This document shows, piece by piece, positions 3,858 to 11,129 of a stretch of 64,000 nt of DNA (positions within the stretch are counted from its first letter, which is position 1; each line of letters starts with the position of its first letter). The notes beneath the pieces were generated by a model. It ran no database searches. It was not told the DNA's origin and worked only from the letters and a program-made list of their open reading frames with translations. Location of the stretch: the NCBI RefSeq assembly GCF_009914755.1, contig NC_060925.1. One strand, 5' to 3'. A program made the translations under genes and the position numbers. Source of the stretch: the human T2T-CHM13v2.0 reference genome, Homo sapiens.

Positions 3858-4769
3858 GGGGGCAGGGTGCAGGGGGCGGGGCGGAGGGGGGAGTGGTTAC
3901 CCTCAGGCAAAAGGACAGGAGATGCCCTAAAAACTCCCCCGACTCTTTGGTTAGTCTGATTCCCTCCCCTGGCCCTAACAGCCTCCCCTGCTTAGATCCA
4001 AGTGGCAATAGGACCTGAGTCCCTTAGGCAGCCAACCCCACCCAAGCAGAAAGAAGAGACCAGGACATGAGCTGTAAAATGGAAAACAAGAACAGGCTTT
4101 TGAATAGAGAGGGATCGTGAGGCACCCCAGGCAGCTGTGAGGCTAACTTCCAAAGTCAGGATCTTTTAAAATGGTATTTGATTTTCTGGGTTGAATGGGA
4201 CACTTCAACCAAATATAAAAATCTCTTCCTTGGGCAACAGCTGAAATAATGAAGGAAACCACAGGAGGGAGGAGGGGGTCAGGGCAGGATCAAAGCTAAT
4301 CTCCTGGTTGCTCCTTGCTTAGATGGCTCGGTATGCCCCAGACCAATTCAGTCTCACGCTGCTCAAAGACAAGAAGAGGCTCTTAATAAAGAGAAGCATA
4401 ACATAGAGGTAGAGAACAGAATGCCAGGGCTGGAACTGGTCTCAGCAACCATCTTGTCTGACTCCCCCTTTGCATGAAAAAGGGGGTGGTAAAGTTCAGT
4501 GGGATTGGGCCATCTGTCTAAGGGCAATAGAGGCAGACAGGACAGTCAGGGCAATGCTGTCAACAGACTTTGCATGTTCTGACTCCTGTCCACCTGTCTA
4601 GTTCTCTTTTCCCTGGCTACACCATTAACAAGAAAGATAAGCAGAACAACCATCTCTATAGTGAGCACTGGCTGAGAATCAGGAGACCTGGATTCCAGCC
4701 CCAGCTCCATAGAAAATCAATTGTTTAACCTTGGAAAAGTCACTTAACACTACCCTGAATTTTTTTACT

Positions 4770-7700
4770 TGTGGGCTAGATGGCATTTCAGGAGGTTCCG
4801 GTTCCACCCTCACAAGGCAGGTTCCAAGTTTGGAGAGAGAGATTTCATACTCATGTTATGCTCAAAAGGTCTAATTCAATACCTAGATCACCAAGGCGTA
4901 CATATAGAAGCCCAGATTCCACAACTAAAGAATCAGGTTTTATACCTAGAGAGGCAGGATTCACATCAGGAGCTACTTTCCAACCCTGGAAAGTCAGGTT
5001 TCATAATTGGAAACCCAATTTCCATGTTTATAGAGCCAGGTTTTATGCGGAAGAGCAGAATATATATGCATAAAAAGGCAGGATTTACACCTAGGAGAGC
5101 TAAATATATCTCTGAAAGTCCATGTTTCATAAATGGAGTACAGGTTCCATGTTTATATGGTCAGGTTCAATGGCTGGGGATTGATATTCCATACACAGAG
5201 TGCCAGATTCCGTATCTGGGAGACCAGGTTCCATGCATGTAGAGTTGGCTTCTGTGACTCAAATGCCAGTTTCCATGCCCGGAGTTTTAGCTAGAGTGAC
5301 AGATTCCACACTTGTAAGGGTATGTTCCATATTTGGAGATTGAGAATTCATATACACAGTACCAGTTTCCGTGTTTGTAGGGGTGGGGCTTATATGGACG
5401 TCCCAATTAATGAAATGCCTGCAAGTCTAGGTTTCATACATGGAGTGCAAGATTCCATGACGGTAAGGCCAGTTTTCATGGATGGAGTTTTGAGATTCCA
5501 TACATATAATGCTAAGTTACTTGCTTTTAGGGCCAGGTCCCGTGGTTGAGTATTGAGGTTCTTATACAGTAAGTACCAATTTCAGCATTAGTAGTTCAAG
5601 TTTCACACTCAGAGACTGAGAGTTCATTCATGCATTGCCAGGTTCCATGCCTGGGGAAATAGGTTTTTAAGGCTTGGAGAGCCAACTTCTATGACTAAAA
5701 CCCAAGGTTTCATGCCTGGAATGCCAGATTCCACATTTATAAGGCCACGTTATACTAGAAGATTGAGATTCCACACATGGGGTGCCATGTTGAATGCTCA
5801 TAGGGCCAAGTTTCATGCTTTAAGTATATAGATTCTATGCTTGGAGATTGAAATTCCATAAATGCAGTACCAGATTCCATGTATGAACTGCAAGGTTAGA
5901 TGATTATTGAAATCCATACATGCGGTGCCAGATTCTATGCTTGTAGGGCCAAATTCCATACCTAGATATTGAAGTATCATACATGGATTCCTGGGTTCCA
6001 TACTTGTATGACCATGTTCCATGTTAGAGTTGAGATTCCAAACAGCTGGTGCCAGGTTCATGGTTTGGAGGCCAAGCTTCATGTTTTAGTGAGCAAACTT
6101 CTACAACTGAAACTCTAGGTTTCATGTCTGGGGTGACAGGTCACACACTTGTGAAGCCATGTTCCATGCTTAGAGTTAGAGATTTAATCCATTGAGTCCC
6201 AGTTCTGTGCTACTAGGGCCAGGTTCAATTTTTGGAGATTGAGTTTCCGTACATGGACTGCCAGTTTCCCTGTATGGGAAATGAGGTTCCTGATCTTGGA
6301 AAGCCAAGATCTATAATAAACATGCCAGGTGTCATGACTGGAGTGCCAGATTCCACACTTTTAAGGTCATGTTCCATGCTCAACACTGAGATTCCAAATA
6401 TGAAATGTTAGGTTTTATGCTTGTGGGTCTGTTCCATGTTGAAGATTGAGATTCCACACATAGAGTGCCATGTCCCATGCTTGTAGGGCCAGATTTTATG
6501 CATGGATATTGTGATTCCATATGGAGTCCCTAGTTCTATGCCTGGCATAACAGATTCCATGCAAGGAAATCCAACTTCTGTGAATGGCACACAAGTTCTG
6601 TCTGTGCAATTTCAGGTTTCAGCCTATTACGATTTTCCATGCTTTGAGATTTTGATTCTGAATATGGATTGCTAGGTTCCATGCTTGTATAGTCAGGATC
6701 CATCCTTGGAGGTTGAGATTACAGTCATGGTGTGCCAGGTTCTATACCTGGAGGTAGAGTTTTACAAATGGAGGATGAAGTAATAGCTTGGAAGTTTACA
6801 TTTCCACACTCTGCAAGACAGGTTTTACCTATAGATGGTAAAGTTCTTGCAATAGTTAATTTTATGTGTCAACTTGACTGAGCTAAGGAATGCCCAGATA
6901 GCTGGTAAAACATTATTTCTGGGTGTATCTGTGAGGGCATTTCTGGAAGAGGTTAACATTTAAATTGATAGACTGAGTAAAGAAGACCATTGTCATCAAT
7001 GTGGGTGGGCATCGTCCAATCCACAACGGCCCAATAGAACACAAAGGTTAAGAAAAGACAAAGTTGCTCTCTCTTATTGAGCTGGAACATCCATTTTCTC
7101 CTGCCCTTAGACACTGGAGCTTCTGCTTCTCTGGCCTTTGGACTCTGGGACTTAAATATATATCCTATTGGTTCTGTTTCTCTGGGGAATTCTAACTAAT
7201 ACAAATCCCAACATGAAGAGTAAGATTCCACTTCTGTAGATCAGGATTCATTACTTTCTTGGCCATATTTCATGCCTAGAAATACAGATTCCATAGTTGG
7301 AATGTCAAATTCTAGGCCTAATGCCCACCACATTGTATAATTGGAGGTCCAGATGATTGCCTTATGATTCGGGTTCTATAGAACATGTTTCATGATGGCT
7401 AATCCTTATTTTATACTTGGAAGTCCGGGTTCCATATTTGGAGAGTAAGATTCCAGGCCTGGATGGTGAGATTCAATACCTGGTAGGCCAGATGACATTA
7501 AGTTTCTACCCAAATTCCACAGAAGGCCAGGCCAGGTTACAAACTGAAAGAGAGAAATTTCACACAGTTTACAATGCATGCCATGCTTAAAGCCTAATTT
7601 CATGTCTACATGGCCTGAATCCACACATAAAAGCACTGGTTCCACACCTACTGTGCAGATTACATGCTGGTAAACCAGTTTCCGTGCTTGGAGAACCAAA

Positions 7701-9805
7701 TTCTGTGACAGAAGTGCCACGCTCCATATCTGAAGCTCCAGTCTCTTTGTGTGTATGGTCATGTTCCATGCTTGAACATTAAGATTCAGGTTCATACTTG
7801 GAAGGCCAGTCTCCACGCTTAGAGATTGAGATTCTACACATGGCGTGCTAAGTTCCAGTTTTATTAGTGGAGTCTGAAATTACCTTGATATTTACCTTTC
7901 TGCTCACAGAAAATCAGATTTTTTCCCATTTTAGGCCAAGTTCCTTACTTGGAGAACCAGATTCCTCTTCTACAGATCAGTTCTCATGAATGCAAGGTCT
8001 TGTTTCCTACTTAAAATTCCAAGTTCCATACTTGGAAGGTGAGATTTTGTGTCAAGTTGGCTAGATTCCATACCTGGTGGGCCAGGTGACATGCCATGAG
8101 ATTCGGGTTCCAACCTAGAAGGTCAGGTTCCAAGCCTGGAGAGAGGGATTTCTCACAGGCTCCCATGGCATGCCTGGAAGTCCTAATTCCATGCCTAAAA
8201 GGTCAAGTTCCATATCTAAAAGTAAAGGTTTCAATCCTAGAGTGTCATATGTAATGCCTGGGGAAGATCACAACTGGGGAGACTCTTCATGGCTAGACAT
8301 TCAGAATCCATGTGGGAAGGCCAGGTTCCATGTTTTAAGGGCCACATTCTACATAGAAGGAGCAAGTATTTATGCTTAGAAGTCTAGGTGTCATGGCCAG
8401 AGGTTCAAGTTCCATGCCTGTAGGGTTGGGGCTCATGGATTTCTACATTATATACTTGGAAAGGTAGACTTCACATCTAAAACACGTAAATCAGTTCCAG
8501 CTTTCCTACATGGAATGCCATATTACATGCTTTTGGGGCCAGATTCCCTGCTCAGAGGTTGAGATTTCTTTCATGGAATGCCAAGTTCCATGACTGTTGC
8601 ATGTTTCCAGTCTTGGATATTCTTGGATTCTATACATGAAGTGCCATCTTCCATGCATGGGGAGCACCAGGTTTCATGTCTTGGGCGACCAACTTCTATG
8701 ACTGAGACACAAGCTTAATGTCTGGAGTGCCAAGCAATATACTTATTAAGCCATGTTCCATATGGGGAGATTGAGATTCCACATATTGTGTTCCATTCCA
8801 TTCCTGAAAGTTTAAATTTCATGCTTGGAGATAGAGATCCTTACATGGGGTGTCAGGTTCCATGCTCTTAGGGTCAGAATCCATTCTGGAAATTGAGATT
8901 CCATACATGGAGTGCCAGATTTCATGCTTGTAGAGCCAACTTCCATGTTTGGATATTGGGATTCCACACATAGAGTGGCAGATTCTGTGCCTGGAGGCAT
9001 GGTTTTACCAATGGAGAGTCAATTCAGTGCCTGGAAGGCTACATTTCTACTCAGAAATTCAGGTTTTACCCACAGATGGCCAAGTTCCCAAAGTGGAGAG
9101 CCATATTACATTTCTTTGAATCAGGTTTCATGCTCATAACTCCATGTTTCATCTCTAGAAGTACAGATTCCATACTCGGAGGGTCATGGAACACCTGGAA
9201 GATGGCCAGGTTCCATACCTGATGGGCCAGACGCCATGACTTGCGGTTCAGGTTCAACCCACGGAAGACCATGATCCAACTTAGACAAAGAGGTTTCATA
9301 AAGCAGTAACTTATGGCATGCCTAGAAGGCCTGATTCCATGCTAGCGGCCCAGGATCCACATATAGAAGCCCAGGTTCCACACACACACATGTCGTATTT
9401 TATGCCTGGAAAGGAAGGATTCACACCTGGAGAGATATTCCATGTTTGGAAAGTCAGATTTTATATATGGAGGGACAGGTTCTGTGTTTAAAGGGATACA
9501 TTTTATACCTGTGTTGCAAGTTTTCATGCTTAGAGGCCTAGGTTCAATGCTTGGAGGTCCAGCCACTGGACCTGTACAGTGGCTTCTCATGTGGAGGACC
9601 AGATTGTATGCTTGGAAAAGGAGAAATAACACCAAGAAGACCTAAATCAGTTCCTGAAAGTTCAGAGTTCATATAGGACTTCAGGTTCTGTGTTTGGAGA
9701 TTGAGATTTCACATATGGATTGTCAGTTTCCAGCCTTGGAGAACAGGTTCCATATCTTAGATTTTTTAGAGAATCAATTTTCAATTTCCTAAATTCCAAA
9801 GGTAC
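4770..9805. repeat. Degenerate ~21-bp tandem array (consensus ~CCAGRTTCCATGCTTGGAGRG) with higher-order cassettes
   Basis: GGTTCCAT/GATTCCAT cores recur about every 21 nt over ~5 kb; interrupted by an MLT2 LTR. Confidence 0.88.
6848..7203. mobile_element. MLT2 (ERVL) solo LTR inserted in the 21-bp array
   Basis: Starts TG..GTTAATTTTATGTGTCAACTTGACT and ends CCTATTGGTTCTGTTTCTCTGG..CTAATACA, typical MLT2 termini. Confidence 0.88.
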
Positions 9806-9806
9806 T

Positions 9807-10425
<619 letters not shown>

Positions 10426-11129
10426 TGTTTCTTAAAATTAATATGTCTTATTGCATATGTGAGGTCAAGGTGTCATACTGTCTCATCATTTCCACCTCCT
10501 CTTTCACAATTCCCATTCTCCATTTTATTAAAAATGAATGAATGAATAAATGATTATCACATGTTTAAGGCTTCCTGAATTTAATTATGGGGCATTCCAC
10601 TGGGGTGTAATTACCTGCAGCATGATATTGTAGAACAACTCAATATATGGAAGCCTCCTTTAGTCAAGAAATTGTAATCCTACACTAAGGCTACATGTTT
10701 TTGTCTTTATATTTTTGATAAGGGTGCAGCATAATATAGAAACAAGGTATTTGGGGACATCCTGAATTCATGTATATTGAGGAGTGAAGTGGCAGGAATT
10801 ATGGCAAATTTTGTTGAAGGGTCTTGCCTTTTGCATTGCCTAATTATGATCAAATAATGCATTGCTACTATAGGAGAGTTCTGAGAGGGCAAAGTAGAGA
10901 GGCTCAGTACAAAATACAGAACTTACCAGAGCTCATTCCATCCTGGAGACAAACTTATGACAAGACTCTGTGCCTTATCCACCTCCCTGCCTCCTTTCCT
11001 TCCTGTCTTTTTATCCATCTTAGAATTAAGATATTTAAATTTTGTCTGAAGCATGTCAGAGAATAACAACATGCTATAAAATTTCACTTGTGTTCACCCA
11101 TGTGTCAGCTGAGTATTTTGCATTGTTAC

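What the first reader, a model, noticed from the sequence alone, without database searches (positions are those of the whole stretch)
4770..9805. ~5 kb ancient 21-bp tandem array that reads as heptapeptide repeats: fossil coding exon or single-locus satellite
Seen: a 21-nt period (e.g. CCAGGTTCCATGCTTGGAGAT / TGAGATTCCATACATGGAGTG / CCAGATTCCATGCTTGTAGGG) runs for ~5 kb with heavy divergence. Minus-strand ORF fragments give M-E-x-G/Q-x-P-x heptads: MEHGHTS MEPRNPC..MEFGPTS IESGTAC (5813-6082), LESYSPN MEPGLPS (7406-7816), VESQYPN MEVGSTS MKSGTPC MESQF (8812-9000). It matches no repeat family I recognise. Inference: either the decayed remnant of a large repetitive coding exon (a lost gene beside FAM72A) or an old locus-specific satellite. 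A period divisible by 3 alone does not prove coding.
Basis: partly seen in the sequence, partly recalled or inferred. Interest (0 to 1): 0.8.

Follow-up and report, generated by a model that had tools for sequence, protein, structure and literature searches.

The report
Decayed 21-bp satellite, two human loci
This 5-kb stretch is the worn-down remnant of an old non-coding tandem repeat with a 21-base unit; it has one sister array on chromosome 8, it shows no sign of ever having coded for protein, and it is an ordinary if unusually old piece of repeat DNA.

Summary
A 21-bp period runs from about 4768 to 9805 (lag-21 match 0.394 against a 0.256 background). That is roughly 220 head-to-tail units in one orientation, with consensus CCAGGTTCCATGCTTGGAGAG. 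An LTR-like insertion interrupts the array at 6839-7206.

The array has higher orders. A 63-bp triplet unit appears locally. Four macro-units of about 1.15 kb each join a specific 'B' part to a regular 'A' part.

It is not single-locus. A second array of about 7.8 kb and about 326 units, with the identical consensus, lies at G000:C8:91,887,050-91,895,000. Macro-units are about as diverged within chr1 (70%) as between chr1 and chr8 (67-69%).

BLAST with about 9 kb of array sequence and a genome-wide degenerate pattern scan found no third array.

The fossil-exon reading is not supported:
- All six frames carry stops about every 20 codons.
- Unit-length variants are mostly ±1-2 bp, not ±3.
- No Pfam family matches.

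Best reading: a relic composite satellite, roughly 100 My old (inference), decaying neutrally. Orthologues and Dfam could not be checked here.

The parts
4768..6838 (+). Left part of the 21-bp array. It holds macro-unit 1, which starts in mid 'B' part and carries a long 'A' part of 21/63-bp units, plus the start of macro-unit 2.
   Evidence: Lag-21 match is 0.36-0.48 per 300 bp. PWM hits are all forward. 4768-4846 matches 8074-8152 at 80%, and 4772-5011 matches 9223-9471 at 68%.
6839..7206 (.). Inserted LTR-like interspersed repeat, not part of the array.
   Evidence: Genome BLAST gave 4512 first-look candidates, of which 40 were scored; one was the query itself and 39 were copies at 77-82% identity over query 2070-2388. 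The insertion splits a macro-unit cleanly: 6636-6846 matches 8880-9087 and 7206-7307 matches 9086-9186. Lag-21 falls to 0.21 here.
7207..9805 (+). Right part of the array: the rest of macro-unit 2 (to about 7860), macro-unit 3 (7893-9000) and macro-unit 4 (9040-9790).
   Evidence: 7893-8498 matches 9040-9654 at 67% over 625 bp, a shift of 1147 bp. The global alignment score is 370, against 39-75 for generic array stretches. Lag-21 is 0.33-0.44.
8826..8985 (+). Best-preserved stretch, with a 62-63-bp (3 x 21) higher-order unit.
   Evidence: TRF: period 62, 2.6 copies, 76% matches, score 166. The 63-column wraparound profile shows one sub-unit of type ...CAGATTCCATACATG and two of type ...CCAGGTTCCATGCTTG.
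4661..4770 (+). Fragment of a MIR-like SINE that abuts the left edge of the array and is cut off there. It is a flank, not part of the array.
   Evidence: A profile built from 7 independent copies matches 4661-4770 at profile positions 101-215, E 1.8e-7. The 3' half of the profile was not found at 9700-9810 or 10434-10900. The name MIR is recalled.
9806..10446 (-). Two Alu elements that bound the array on the right. They are a flank.
   Evidence: TRF: period 311, 2 copies, 9812-10430. Rfam gives a sub-threshold Metazoa_SRP match at 9830-9977 on the minus strand, E 1.4e-7. There are no array units beyond them.
5350..5462 (+). First exon of the predicted lncRNA LOC105372873, which lies inside the array. 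A decayed unit supplies the splice donor.
   Evidence: The hub annotation gives exon 5350-5462. The sequence reads ...CCATGACG|GTAAGG at 5462/5463. Transcription was not tested here. No paper holds the gene name.

Best explanation
The stretch is a relic of an old, non-coding, composite tandem repeat (a satellite or minisatellite).

Proposed history. A 21-bp unit (consensus CCAGGTTCCATGCTTGGAGAG) was amplified head to tail, and its copies drifted apart. Blocks were then re-amplified by unequal exchange, giving a local 63-bp triplet unit and macro-units of about 1.15 kb. At about the same time a copy of this structured array came to lie on a second chromosome (now chr8:91.887-91.895 Mb). Homogenisation then stopped, and both arrays have decayed like neutral, methylated bulk DNA. 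They picked up LTR and Alu insertions. One decayed unit now serves as splice donor of a predicted lncRNA.

Shown here: the period, the single orientation, the higher orders, the second locus, the absence of a third, the insertion order and the lack of any coding signature.

Inferred: the amplification mechanism, the age (order of 100 million years), neutrality, and how the second locus arose.
For: Period and orientation:
- Lag-21 self-match is 0.394 against a median of 0.256.
- PWM hits are 131 forward against 6 reverse in the window.

Hierarchy:
- TRF reports a 62-bp unit.
- 7893-8498 matches 9040-9654, a shift of 1147 bp, at 67% over 625 bp.
- The B-part alignment score is 370, against 39-75 for generic array stretches.

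Second locus:
- chr8:91,887,2xx-91,895,0xx has lag-21 values of 0.31-0.46.
- It has 148 forward and 6 reverse PWM hits.
- Its consensus is identical, and the frequency matrices correlate at r = 0.991.
- Window 8843-9556 aligns to chr8:91887420-91888124 at 66.7% over 726 bp.

Equal divergence within and between loci: 0.703, against 0.671 and 0.694; K2P 0.38-0.44.

Only two loci:
- Five BLAST searches, with queries from both arrays, hit only chr1 and chr8.
- A degenerate 30-place pattern with up to 2 mismatches gave 70 genome hits: 22 in the chr1 array, 16 in the chr8 array and 32 scattered singletons. The reversed-pattern control gave 19.
- Of the 32 singletons, 10 were fetched, and none is an array.

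Older than its insertions:
- The window LTR splits a macro-unit at adjacent positions.
- The chr8 array holds a full-length high-copy repeat whose 39 best scored copies are 73-77% identical to it.

Neutral look:
- GC is 0.42-0.43 and CpG observed/expected is 0.13-0.14.
- A and T positions are kept at about 0.77-0.90, with two exceptions (positions 14 and 20, 0.37-0.41). C and G positions are kept at about 0.46-0.69, mostly lost by transitions.

No coding signature. No Rfam family lies in the array.
Against: - The longest open frames (156 codons on +, 157 on -) exceed the 95th percentile of mononucleotide shuffles (131 and 135), though not their maxima (201 and 158). I put this down to a consensus that has no stop in any of its six frames, which can be read directly from the consensus.
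- Positions 2, 5, 8... of the unit vary most. This gives an excess of 'synonymous' changes in the + frame RFHAWRA (0.353 against 0.194 expected) and the - frame LQAWNLA (0.410 against 0.276). The effect is the same on both strands. Stops are not clearly depleted (0.065 against 0.094; 0.105 against 0.106). The three-base periodicity is not significant (P 0.07-0.10).
- Transitions about equal transversions in the macro-unit alignments. The alignments are therefore noisy or saturated, and the age is rough.
- Only two loci is unusual for a satellite family.
- Neutrality and age were not tested against other species. No Dfam or RepeatMasker library was available, so a named family cannot be excluded.
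Confidence: 0.75

Rival explanations
1. The arrays are what is left of a low-copy mobile element, or of a satellite derived from one. Its body was a tandem-repeat region; the 1.15-kb macro-unit would be the element or its internal repeat block. It inserted at two places.
For: - Two unlinked loci share a structured macro-unit, not just the 21-mer.
- Divergence within and between loci is equal, which fits a single burst.
- The SINE at the left edge of the window array has lost its 3' half, as expected if something arrived or rearranged there after the SINE.
Against: - Only two loci exist in 3.1 Gb.
- Apart from Alus, no shared flank, terminal repeat or other homology was found between the first 16 kb of the window and 20 kb around the chr8 array.
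- No Pfam domain was found in the 12 of 31 array ORFs that were scanned.
- The SINE remainder is not on the far side of the array, so a clean insertion into the SINE is not shown.
- The chr8 edges carry SINE pieces of a different part and orientation.
Confidence: 0.12
2. The arrays are kept, or have been reused, for a function as repeated DNA or RNA motifs: for example a platform of protein-binding sites, or the promoter and first exon of a lncRNA.
For: - A predicted lncRNA starts inside the array and uses a unit as its splice donor (hub annotation; sequence).
- Two arrays have survived for a long time without being deleted.
Against: - Units are only 66.5% identical to their consensus on average. 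This is the figure for the 119 of 252 units that have all 21 columns matched.
- Decay follows base type, as expected for mutation bias, rather than any motif.
- CpG is depleted as in bulk DNA.
- No Rfam family matches.
- The lncRNA model is only predicted, and its name is in no paper searched.
- No expression, binding or conservation data could be consulted.
Confidence: 0.07
3. The array is the decayed remnant of a large repetitive coding exon with heptad repeats such as M-E-P-G-x-P-S on the minus strand. The chr8 array would be a paralogue.
For: - The period is divisible by 3.
- The consensus is open in all frames.
- Minus-strand fragments read as heptads.
- The longest open frames lie above the 95th percentile of shuffles.
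Against: - Each of the six frames carries 22-50 stops per 689-866 codons.
- Open frames of 60 aa or more are equally common on both strands: 16 on + and 15 on -.
- Spacings other than 21 bp are mainly ±1-2 bp. In the window, 73 are of 19, 20, 22 or 23 bp against 7 of 18 or 24 bp. On chr8 the counts are 92 against 9.
- In the proposed frame the third positions are the most conserved class, and the synonymous fraction is 0.160 against 0.225 expected.
- No Pfam family reaches its cut-off.
- The array abuts a truncated SINE.
Confidence: 0.03

Closest known systems
Classical satellite and minisatellite DNA with higher-order repeats (for example alpha-satellite higher-order repeats; general knowledge, recalled)
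   Same: Head-to-tail units in one orientation. Nested periods (21 bp, 63 bp, about 1.15 kb) of the kind unequal exchange produces. Presence on more than one chromosome.
   Different: The arrays are tiny (5 and 7.8 kb). They are interstitial and found at only two loci. Units are about 66% identical to the consensus, so homogenisation stopped long ago. TRF detects only 160 bp of the array.
Human HSATII/HSATIII (GGAAT)n-type satellites (recalled)
   Same: The conserved core ATTCCAT of many units resembles the (ATTCC)n motif.
   Different: The period is 21 bp, not 5 bp, and the rest of the unit (GCTTGGAGAGCCAGG) is unrelated. BLAST with the array hit no other satellite locus. Membership could not be tested against a library.
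Tandem-repeat coding exons (mucin-like and other heptad or short-period protein repeats; recalled)
   Same: A period divisible by 3 and a consensus without stops.
   Different: There is no privileged frame, no in-frame bias of length variants, no third-position relaxation in the proposed frame, and no protein family match.
The 8q21.2 VNTR/macrosatellite of chromosome 8 (PMC8099727; search listing and abstract only)
   Same: It is a tandem array on 8q21.
   Different: It is a different place and scale. As I recall it, that array has units of about 12 kb spanning hundreds of kb at about 86 Mb. The sister array here is 7.8 kb of 21-bp units at 91.89 Mb. No relation was found or sought beyond this.

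Membership tests
Tandem satellite/minisatellite DNA | Head-to-tail copies of one unit, all in one orientation, with a stable period | tested here: met
   The lag-21 peak is 0.394 against 0.256. 133 of 235 spacings are exactly 21 bp. PWM hits are 131 forward and 6 reverse.
Tandem satellite/minisatellite DNA | Higher-order periodicity from unequal exchange | tested here: met
   TRF reports a 62-bp unit. A shift of 1147 bp gives a 625-bp alignment at 67%. The alignment score is 370 against 39-75 for controls.
Tandem satellite/minisatellite DNA | Ongoing homogenisation, meaning high identity between neighbouring units | tested here: not met
   Mean identity of units to the consensus is 0.665. TRF detects only 8826-8985. 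The array is therefore a relic, not an active array.
Single-locus ('locus-specific') satellite | No related array elsewhere in the genome | tested here: not met
   The chr8:91,887,050-91,895,000 array has the identical consensus.
Fossil protein-coding repeat exon | One reading frame with fewer stops, or longer open stretches, than the other five | tested here: not met
   Stops per frame are 31-37 in the left part and 22-50 in the right part. The longest open stretches are 156 codons on + and 157 on -.
Fossil protein-coding repeat exon | Length variants between units biased to multiples of 3 | tested here: not met
   In the window: 19 bp 19 times, 20 bp 32, 22 bp 15 and 23 bp 7, against 18 bp 4 and 24 bp 3. 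The chr8 array shows the same pattern.
Fossil protein-coding repeat exon | Third codon positions most variable, with an excess of synonymous differences in the proposed frame | tested here: not met
   In frame SPSMEPG the synonymous fraction is 0.160 against 0.225 expected, and its third positions are the most conserved class (information sum 6.54).
Fossil protein-coding repeat exon | Similarity to a protein family, or an intact orthologous ORF in another species | tested here: inconclusive
   Pfam: none of the 12 ORFs scanned (of 31) is above its cut-off. Orthologous intervals in other vertebrates could not be fetched with these tools.
Transposable-element internal repeat | Many dispersed copies with shared termini or target-site duplications | tested here: not met
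   Only two loci exist. There is no shared non-Alu flank between the first 16 kb of the window and the 20 kb around the chr8 array.
Named human repeat families (Dfam/Repbase) | A significant match to a library consensus or HMM | not testable with these tools
   No repeat library is on hand. Six core strings of the unit, searched in full text, hit only 11 unrelated papers, which looked like primer or other incidental matches judging from the listing.

The most novel reading that the evidence does not exclude
The two arrays are the last recognisable relics of a satellite family of the early eutherian (or older) genome, for example a once-abundant heterochromatic or centromere-associated satellite with a 21-bp unit and a 1.15-kb higher-order repeat. 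In that case the family may still be abundant in some other mammalian lineage, and the two human sites would mark ancestral satellite blocks.
Probability: 0.15. Interest if true: 0.5.

Novelty: new member of a known kind. Interest (0 to 1): 0.25.

Why it matters
The practical value is for annotation. About 13 kb of human DNA at two loci is structured repeat that TRF-type tools largely miss: TRF found 160 bp of the 5 kb here. According to the hub's note, NCBI's file masks no long stretch inside it. Such sequence can be mistaken for a fossil gene because its consensus is open in all six frames.

If the age estimate holds, this is a rare example of a satellite that can still be traced after about 100 million years without homogenisation. 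It also has a built-in internal comparison, because macro-units within a locus and between loci are equally diverged. It does not change what is known about FAM72A, SRGAP2 or AVPR1B.

Tried and rejected
- Strict two-unit pattern, up to 3 mismatches, genome-wide: only one hit, inside the window array. The pattern was too strict to be informative.
- Eight exact anchor patterns tested in a script: almost none matched even the known arrays, so they were not sent to the genome.
- BLAST with the whole array: swamped by the inserted LTR (4512 candidates). It was repeated with TE-free pieces.
- A sequence-only covariance model of 52 63-bp units: the own-genome search does not accept such a model.
- 'The array splits a MIR element': the 5' part of a MIR-like SINE ends at the left edge, but its 3' part was not found on the right. 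Not supported.
- 'The 21-mer derives from the SINE': the best PWM score on the SINE consensus is 8.9, below the 95th percentile (9.4) of random 240-bp pieces. Not significant.
- A first iterative SINE profile was contaminated by the flanks of its own seeds. It was rebuilt from 7 independent copies.
- Pairwise identity of the SINE copies as an internal clock: 0.445, but the columns included non-SINE flanks, so it was not used.
- Literature:
  - FAM72A / AVPR1B / tandem repeat: nothing relevant in the listing.
  - Motif strings: nothing relevant.
  - Ancient satellite / 21-bp terms: nothing relevant in the listing.
  - The T2T repeat preprint, main text searched for '21 bp' and related terms: 0 relevant passages. 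Its supplements are closed and might list this array.
  - Relic-satellite / 8q21 terms: only the unrelated 8q21.2 VNTR.
  - LOC105372873: 0 papers.
- Rfam on 4400-10000: only Alu-derived sub-threshold matches at 9830-9979.
Full report
OBSERVATION

The 21-bp period is real and strong.
- Over window 4770-9805 the fraction of bases that match the base 21 positions on is 0.394. At lag 42 it is 0.352 and at lag 63 it is 0.325.
- The median over lags 1-1500 is 0.256 (sd 0.012). Four control stretches of the same window give 0.263-0.274 at lag 21.
- In 300-bp bins the signal starts in bin 4801 and ends in bin 9601. One gap, bin 6901 (0.21), interrupts it.
- Tandem Repeats Finder reports only 8826-8985 (period 62, 2.6 copies, 76% matches) and 8896-8946 (period 21). 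The array is therefore too decayed for routine detection.

A wraparound alignment of 4700-9860 to a cyclic profile converges on the consensus CCAGGTTCCATGCTTGGAGAG.
- It used 5013 matched columns, 148 insertions and 244 deletions. The aligned stretch includes the inserted repeat and about 125 bp of flank, which adds a little noise.
- A matrix from that alignment scores above 10 bits at 131 forward and 6 reverse sites in the 64-kb window. Of the forward sites, 126 fall in the bins from 4501 to 9501+. A shuffled array gives 0.
- Nothing of the kind lies beyond the two Alus at 9806-10446 or upstream of 4768.

The first and third are approximate. The quoted minus-strand peptides are there.

ANATOMY

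All units point the same way. At 6839-7206 sits an interspersed repeat.
- BLAST of the whole array against the genome gave 4512 first-look candidates. Forty were scored: one was the query itself and 39 were copies of this piece alone, at 77-82% identity.
- From memory it looks like a MaLR-type LTR. I could not test the name.
- It splits the array cleanly. 6636-6846 aligns with 8880-9087, and 7206-7307 aligns with 9086-9186. The two sides of the insertion are therefore neighbours in an undisturbed copy.

Above the 21-mer there are two further orders.
- A 62-63-bp triplet unit appears locally. One sub-unit is of type ...CAGATTCCATACATG and two are of type ...CCAGGTTCCATGCTTG. It adds only modestly to the fit over the whole array.
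- Macro-units of about 1.15 kb each consist of a 'B' part of about 600 bp and an 'A' part. The B part is made of degenerate 21-mers with a specific sequence. The A part is made of regular 21/63-bp units and varies in length.
- 7893-8498 aligns with 9040-9654 (shift 1147 bp) at 67% over 625 bp.
- The global alignment score of these two B parts is 370. Against generic A-type stretches of either array it is 39-75.
- The left end of the array starts in mid B: 4768-4846 matches 8074-8152 at 80%, and 4772-5011 matches 9223-9471.
- I read four macro-units: 4768-6760, 6760-7860 (holding the LTR), 7893-9000 and 9040-9790.

A SECOND LOCUS

BLAST of window 5650-6750 against the window's own assembly (3.1 Gb, 24 contigs) hit one other place, G000:C8:91,887,5xx-91,893,9xx, at 67-74% identity.
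- The fetched 20 kb shows lag-21 values of 0.31-0.46 from about 91,887,200 to 91,895,000. There are two interruptions.
- It has 148 forward and 6 reverse matrix hits.
- Re-estimating the unit on the chr8 array gives the identical consensus. The frequency matrix correlates with the chr1 matrix at r = 0.991. It holds about 326 units in 6.9 kb. The estimate started from the chr1 matrix, which favours agreement somewhat.
- The relation goes beyond the 21-mer. Window 8843-9556 aligns with chr8:91,887,420-91,888,124 at 66.7% over 726 bp, and several B-part pieces recur on chr8.
- Apart from Alus, nothing in the first 16 kb of the window matches the 20 kb around the chr8 array.
- One chr8 interruption (91,892,488-91,892,886) is a full-length high-copy repeat. 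It had 5361 candidates. Forty were scored: the query itself and 39 copies at 73-77% identity.

IS THERE A THIRD LOCUS?

- Five BLAST searches hit only these two loci. Three used TE-free pieces of the window array and two used chr8 pieces, about 9 kb of query in all.
- The tool warns that its first look is coarse, so I added a scan that does not depend on it. This was a 30-place degenerate pattern spanning one and a half units, with up to 2 mismatches.
- That scan gave 70 hits in the genome, against 19 for the reversed-pattern control. Of these, 22 are in the chr1 array, 16 are in the chr8 array and 32 are scattered. None of the 32 lies near another (the closest pair is over 1 Mb apart).
- I fetched 3 kb around 10 of the 32 singletons. 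Each has at most 2 matrix hits. The only raised lag-21 values there come from unrelated (GGAA)n-type simple repeats.
- So, at a sensitivity that gives 22 and 16 hits for the known arrays, there is no third array of comparable size. Small or more decayed remnants cannot be excluded.
- No high-identity copy exists elsewhere on chromosome 1. The array therefore lies outside the human-specific SRGAP2/FAM72 duplications. That these duplications exist is recalled, not tested here.

CODING OR NOT

The consensus has no stop codon in any of its six frames, which can be read directly from it. Open stretches on both strands are therefore expected without any selection.

Observed:
- Each of the six frames has 31-37 stops per 689-690 codons in the left part and 22-50 per 865-866 codons in the right part. 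Mononucleotide shuffles average 41 and 50.
- The longest open stretches are 156 codons on the + strand and 157 on the - strand. These lie above the 95th percentile of shuffles (131, 135) but not above their maxima (201, 158). They do not single out a strand.
- Stop-to-stop ORFs of 60 aa or more number 16 on + and 15 on -.
- Spacing between successive units is 21 bp in 133 of 235 cases. The other short-range spacings are 20 bp (32), 19 (19), 22 (15) and 23 (7), against 18 (4) and 24 (3). There is no preference for in-frame changes. The chr8 array behaves the same way: 191 spacings of 21 bp, 92 of ±1-2 bp, and 9 of 18 or 24 bp.
Single-base differences from the consensus are synonymous in 0.160 of cases, against 0.225 expected from the base-substitution spectrum.

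One result points the other way.
- Positions 2, 5, 8... vary most. This gives a 'synonymous' excess in the + frame RFHAWRA (0.353 against 0.194) and the - frame LQAWNLA (0.410 against 0.276).
- The two frames share their third positions, so the effect cannot choose a strand.
- Stops are not clearly avoided (0.065 against 0.094; 0.105 against 0.106).
- A permutation test of the three-base periodicity gives P = 0.096 (lowest class) and 0.073 (range).
- The variable positions are largely those that distinguish the sub-units of the 63-bp repeat.

The 12 longest of the 31 ORFs have no Pfam match above a curated cut-off. The best is EPO_TPO, at 15.2 bits against a cut-off of 25. I conclude that nothing supports a coding past, on either strand.

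STATE OF DECAY AND AGE

- Of 252 units, 119 have all 21 columns matched, and these are on average 66.5% identical to the consensus.
- Retention follows base type. A and T positions are kept at about 0.77-0.90, apart from two weak positions. C and G positions are kept at 0.46-0.69.
- Losses are mostly C to T (0.239) and G to A (0.270).
- GC is 0.42-0.43 and CpG observed/expected is 0.13-0.14, as in the flanks.
- This is the look of long neutral decay in methylated DNA. Neutrality itself is an inference.

Global alignments of B parts give identity 0.703 within chr1 (macro-unit 3 against 4) and 0.671 and 0.694 between chr1 and chr8. Kimura distances are 0.38-0.44.
- Transitions about equal transversions in these alignments, so they contain noise or saturation, and the distances are rough.
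- Taking about 0.2 substitutions per site per lineage, and recalled values for the human lineage since the early eutherian ancestors, the last amplification is of the order of 100 million years old. This is inference.
- Units are further from their consensus (33%) than macro-units are from each other per lineage. This implies that the 21-mers had already diverged before the macro-units were copied.
- Two relative dates are firmer. Both arrays predate the interspersed repeats inserted in them.
- At the left edge of the window array a MIR-like SINE keeps profile positions 101-215 and stops at the edge (4661-4770, E 1.8e-7). Its 3' half is not found on the right side.
- Retroposed SINEs normally keep their 3' ends (general knowledge). 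So something, either the array's arrival or a deletion, happened there after the SINE landed. This is inference.

WHAT IT IS AND HOW IT AROSE

My best reading (0.75) is a relic composite satellite.
- A 21-bp unit was amplified by slippage or unequal exchange and diverged.
- It was re-amplified in 63-bp and about 1.15-kb blocks.
- It was copied to, or shared with, a second chromosome at about the time of the last amplification. The evidence is the equal divergence within and between loci.
- It was then left to decay without further homogenisation.
- How the second locus arose is open: ectopic exchange, a small segmental duplication whose flanks have since been lost, reintegration of excised array DNA, or a mobile carrier.

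The main rival (0.12) is that the macro-unit belonged to a low-copy mobile element. Two unlinked sites and a single burst fit this. Only two copies, no termini and no shared flank do not.

A maintained function (0.07) has only the predicted lncRNA in its favour. Its first exon, 5350-5462, lies in the array and ends at a unit that has mutated into ...ACG|GTAAGG (hub annotation). No paper holds the gene's name.

The fossil exon gets 0.03.

COMPARISON WITH WHAT IS KNOWN

The array works like ordinary satellite DNA with higher-order repeats, but it is dead, tiny, interstitial and confined to two sites.
- Its ATTCCAT core recalls the (ATTCC)n satellites (recalled). The period and the rest of the unit differ, and BLAST linked it to no other satellite.
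- I could not compare it with Dfam or Repbase. Full-text searches for the unit's core strings and for related terms found nothing that describes it. The supplements of the T2T repeat preprint are closed and might list it.
- Per the hub's note, NCBI's file masks no stretch of about 300 bp or more inside the array.

VERDICT

The fossil-gene reading is not supported. The 'single-locus' reading is wrong, and the 'old satellite' reading is right. This is a new member of a known kind, of modest interest (0.25). The open points are its name, if it has one, and its age. Both need a repeat library and other mammalian genomes.

Noticed in passing
window 6839-7206: LTR-like interspersed repeat inserted in the array. 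It had 4512 first-look candidates in the genome, and the 39 scored copies are 77-82% identical to it. Compared with those copies, this one seems to lack an internal piece: the matches to query 2385 and 2389 lie about 115-265 bp apart in other copies.
   Followed up: partly
L011:2488-2886 (G000:C8:91,892,488-91,892,886) and L010 about 8270-8870: Two interruptions of the chr8 array. The first is a full-length high-copy repeat (5361 candidates; the 39 best scored copies are 73-77% identical), and it looks older than the window's LTR. The second was read but not identified.
   Followed up: partly
window 4661-4770: MIR-like SINE fragment that ends exactly at the array's left edge. Its 3' half is missing from both sides of the array.
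   Followed up: yes
window 5350-5462: Exon 1 of the predicted lncRNA LOC105372873 lies inside the array, and its splice donor (G|GTAAGG at 5462/5463) is a mutated repeat unit. No paper mentions the gene.
   Followed up: partly
window 5327-5336 and 7432-7441: Decay of the unit core CCATGCTTGG has produced CCATATTTGG twice. This fits the CC(A/T)6GG form of a serum-response (CArG) box as I recall it. It is probably chance.
   Followed up: no
window 9806-10446: Two tandem Alu elements on the minus strand form the array's right boundary. Rfam gives sub-threshold SRP and Alu-derived miRNA matches at 9830-9979.
   Followed up: yes
window 4770-9805 against the rest of chromosome 1: No high-identity copy of the array exists elsewhere on chromosome 1, so it lies outside the human-specific SRGAP2/FAM72 duplicated segment. 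The duplication boundary within the window was not mapped.
   Followed up: partly
G000:C13:45334651-45334680 and C15:70712845-70712874; C18:10783143-10783172 and C18:12377599-12377628: Among the chance pattern hits, the 30-mers are identical in the first pair and differ at one base in the second. Each pair presumably comes from copies of some other repeat or duplication.
   Followed up: no
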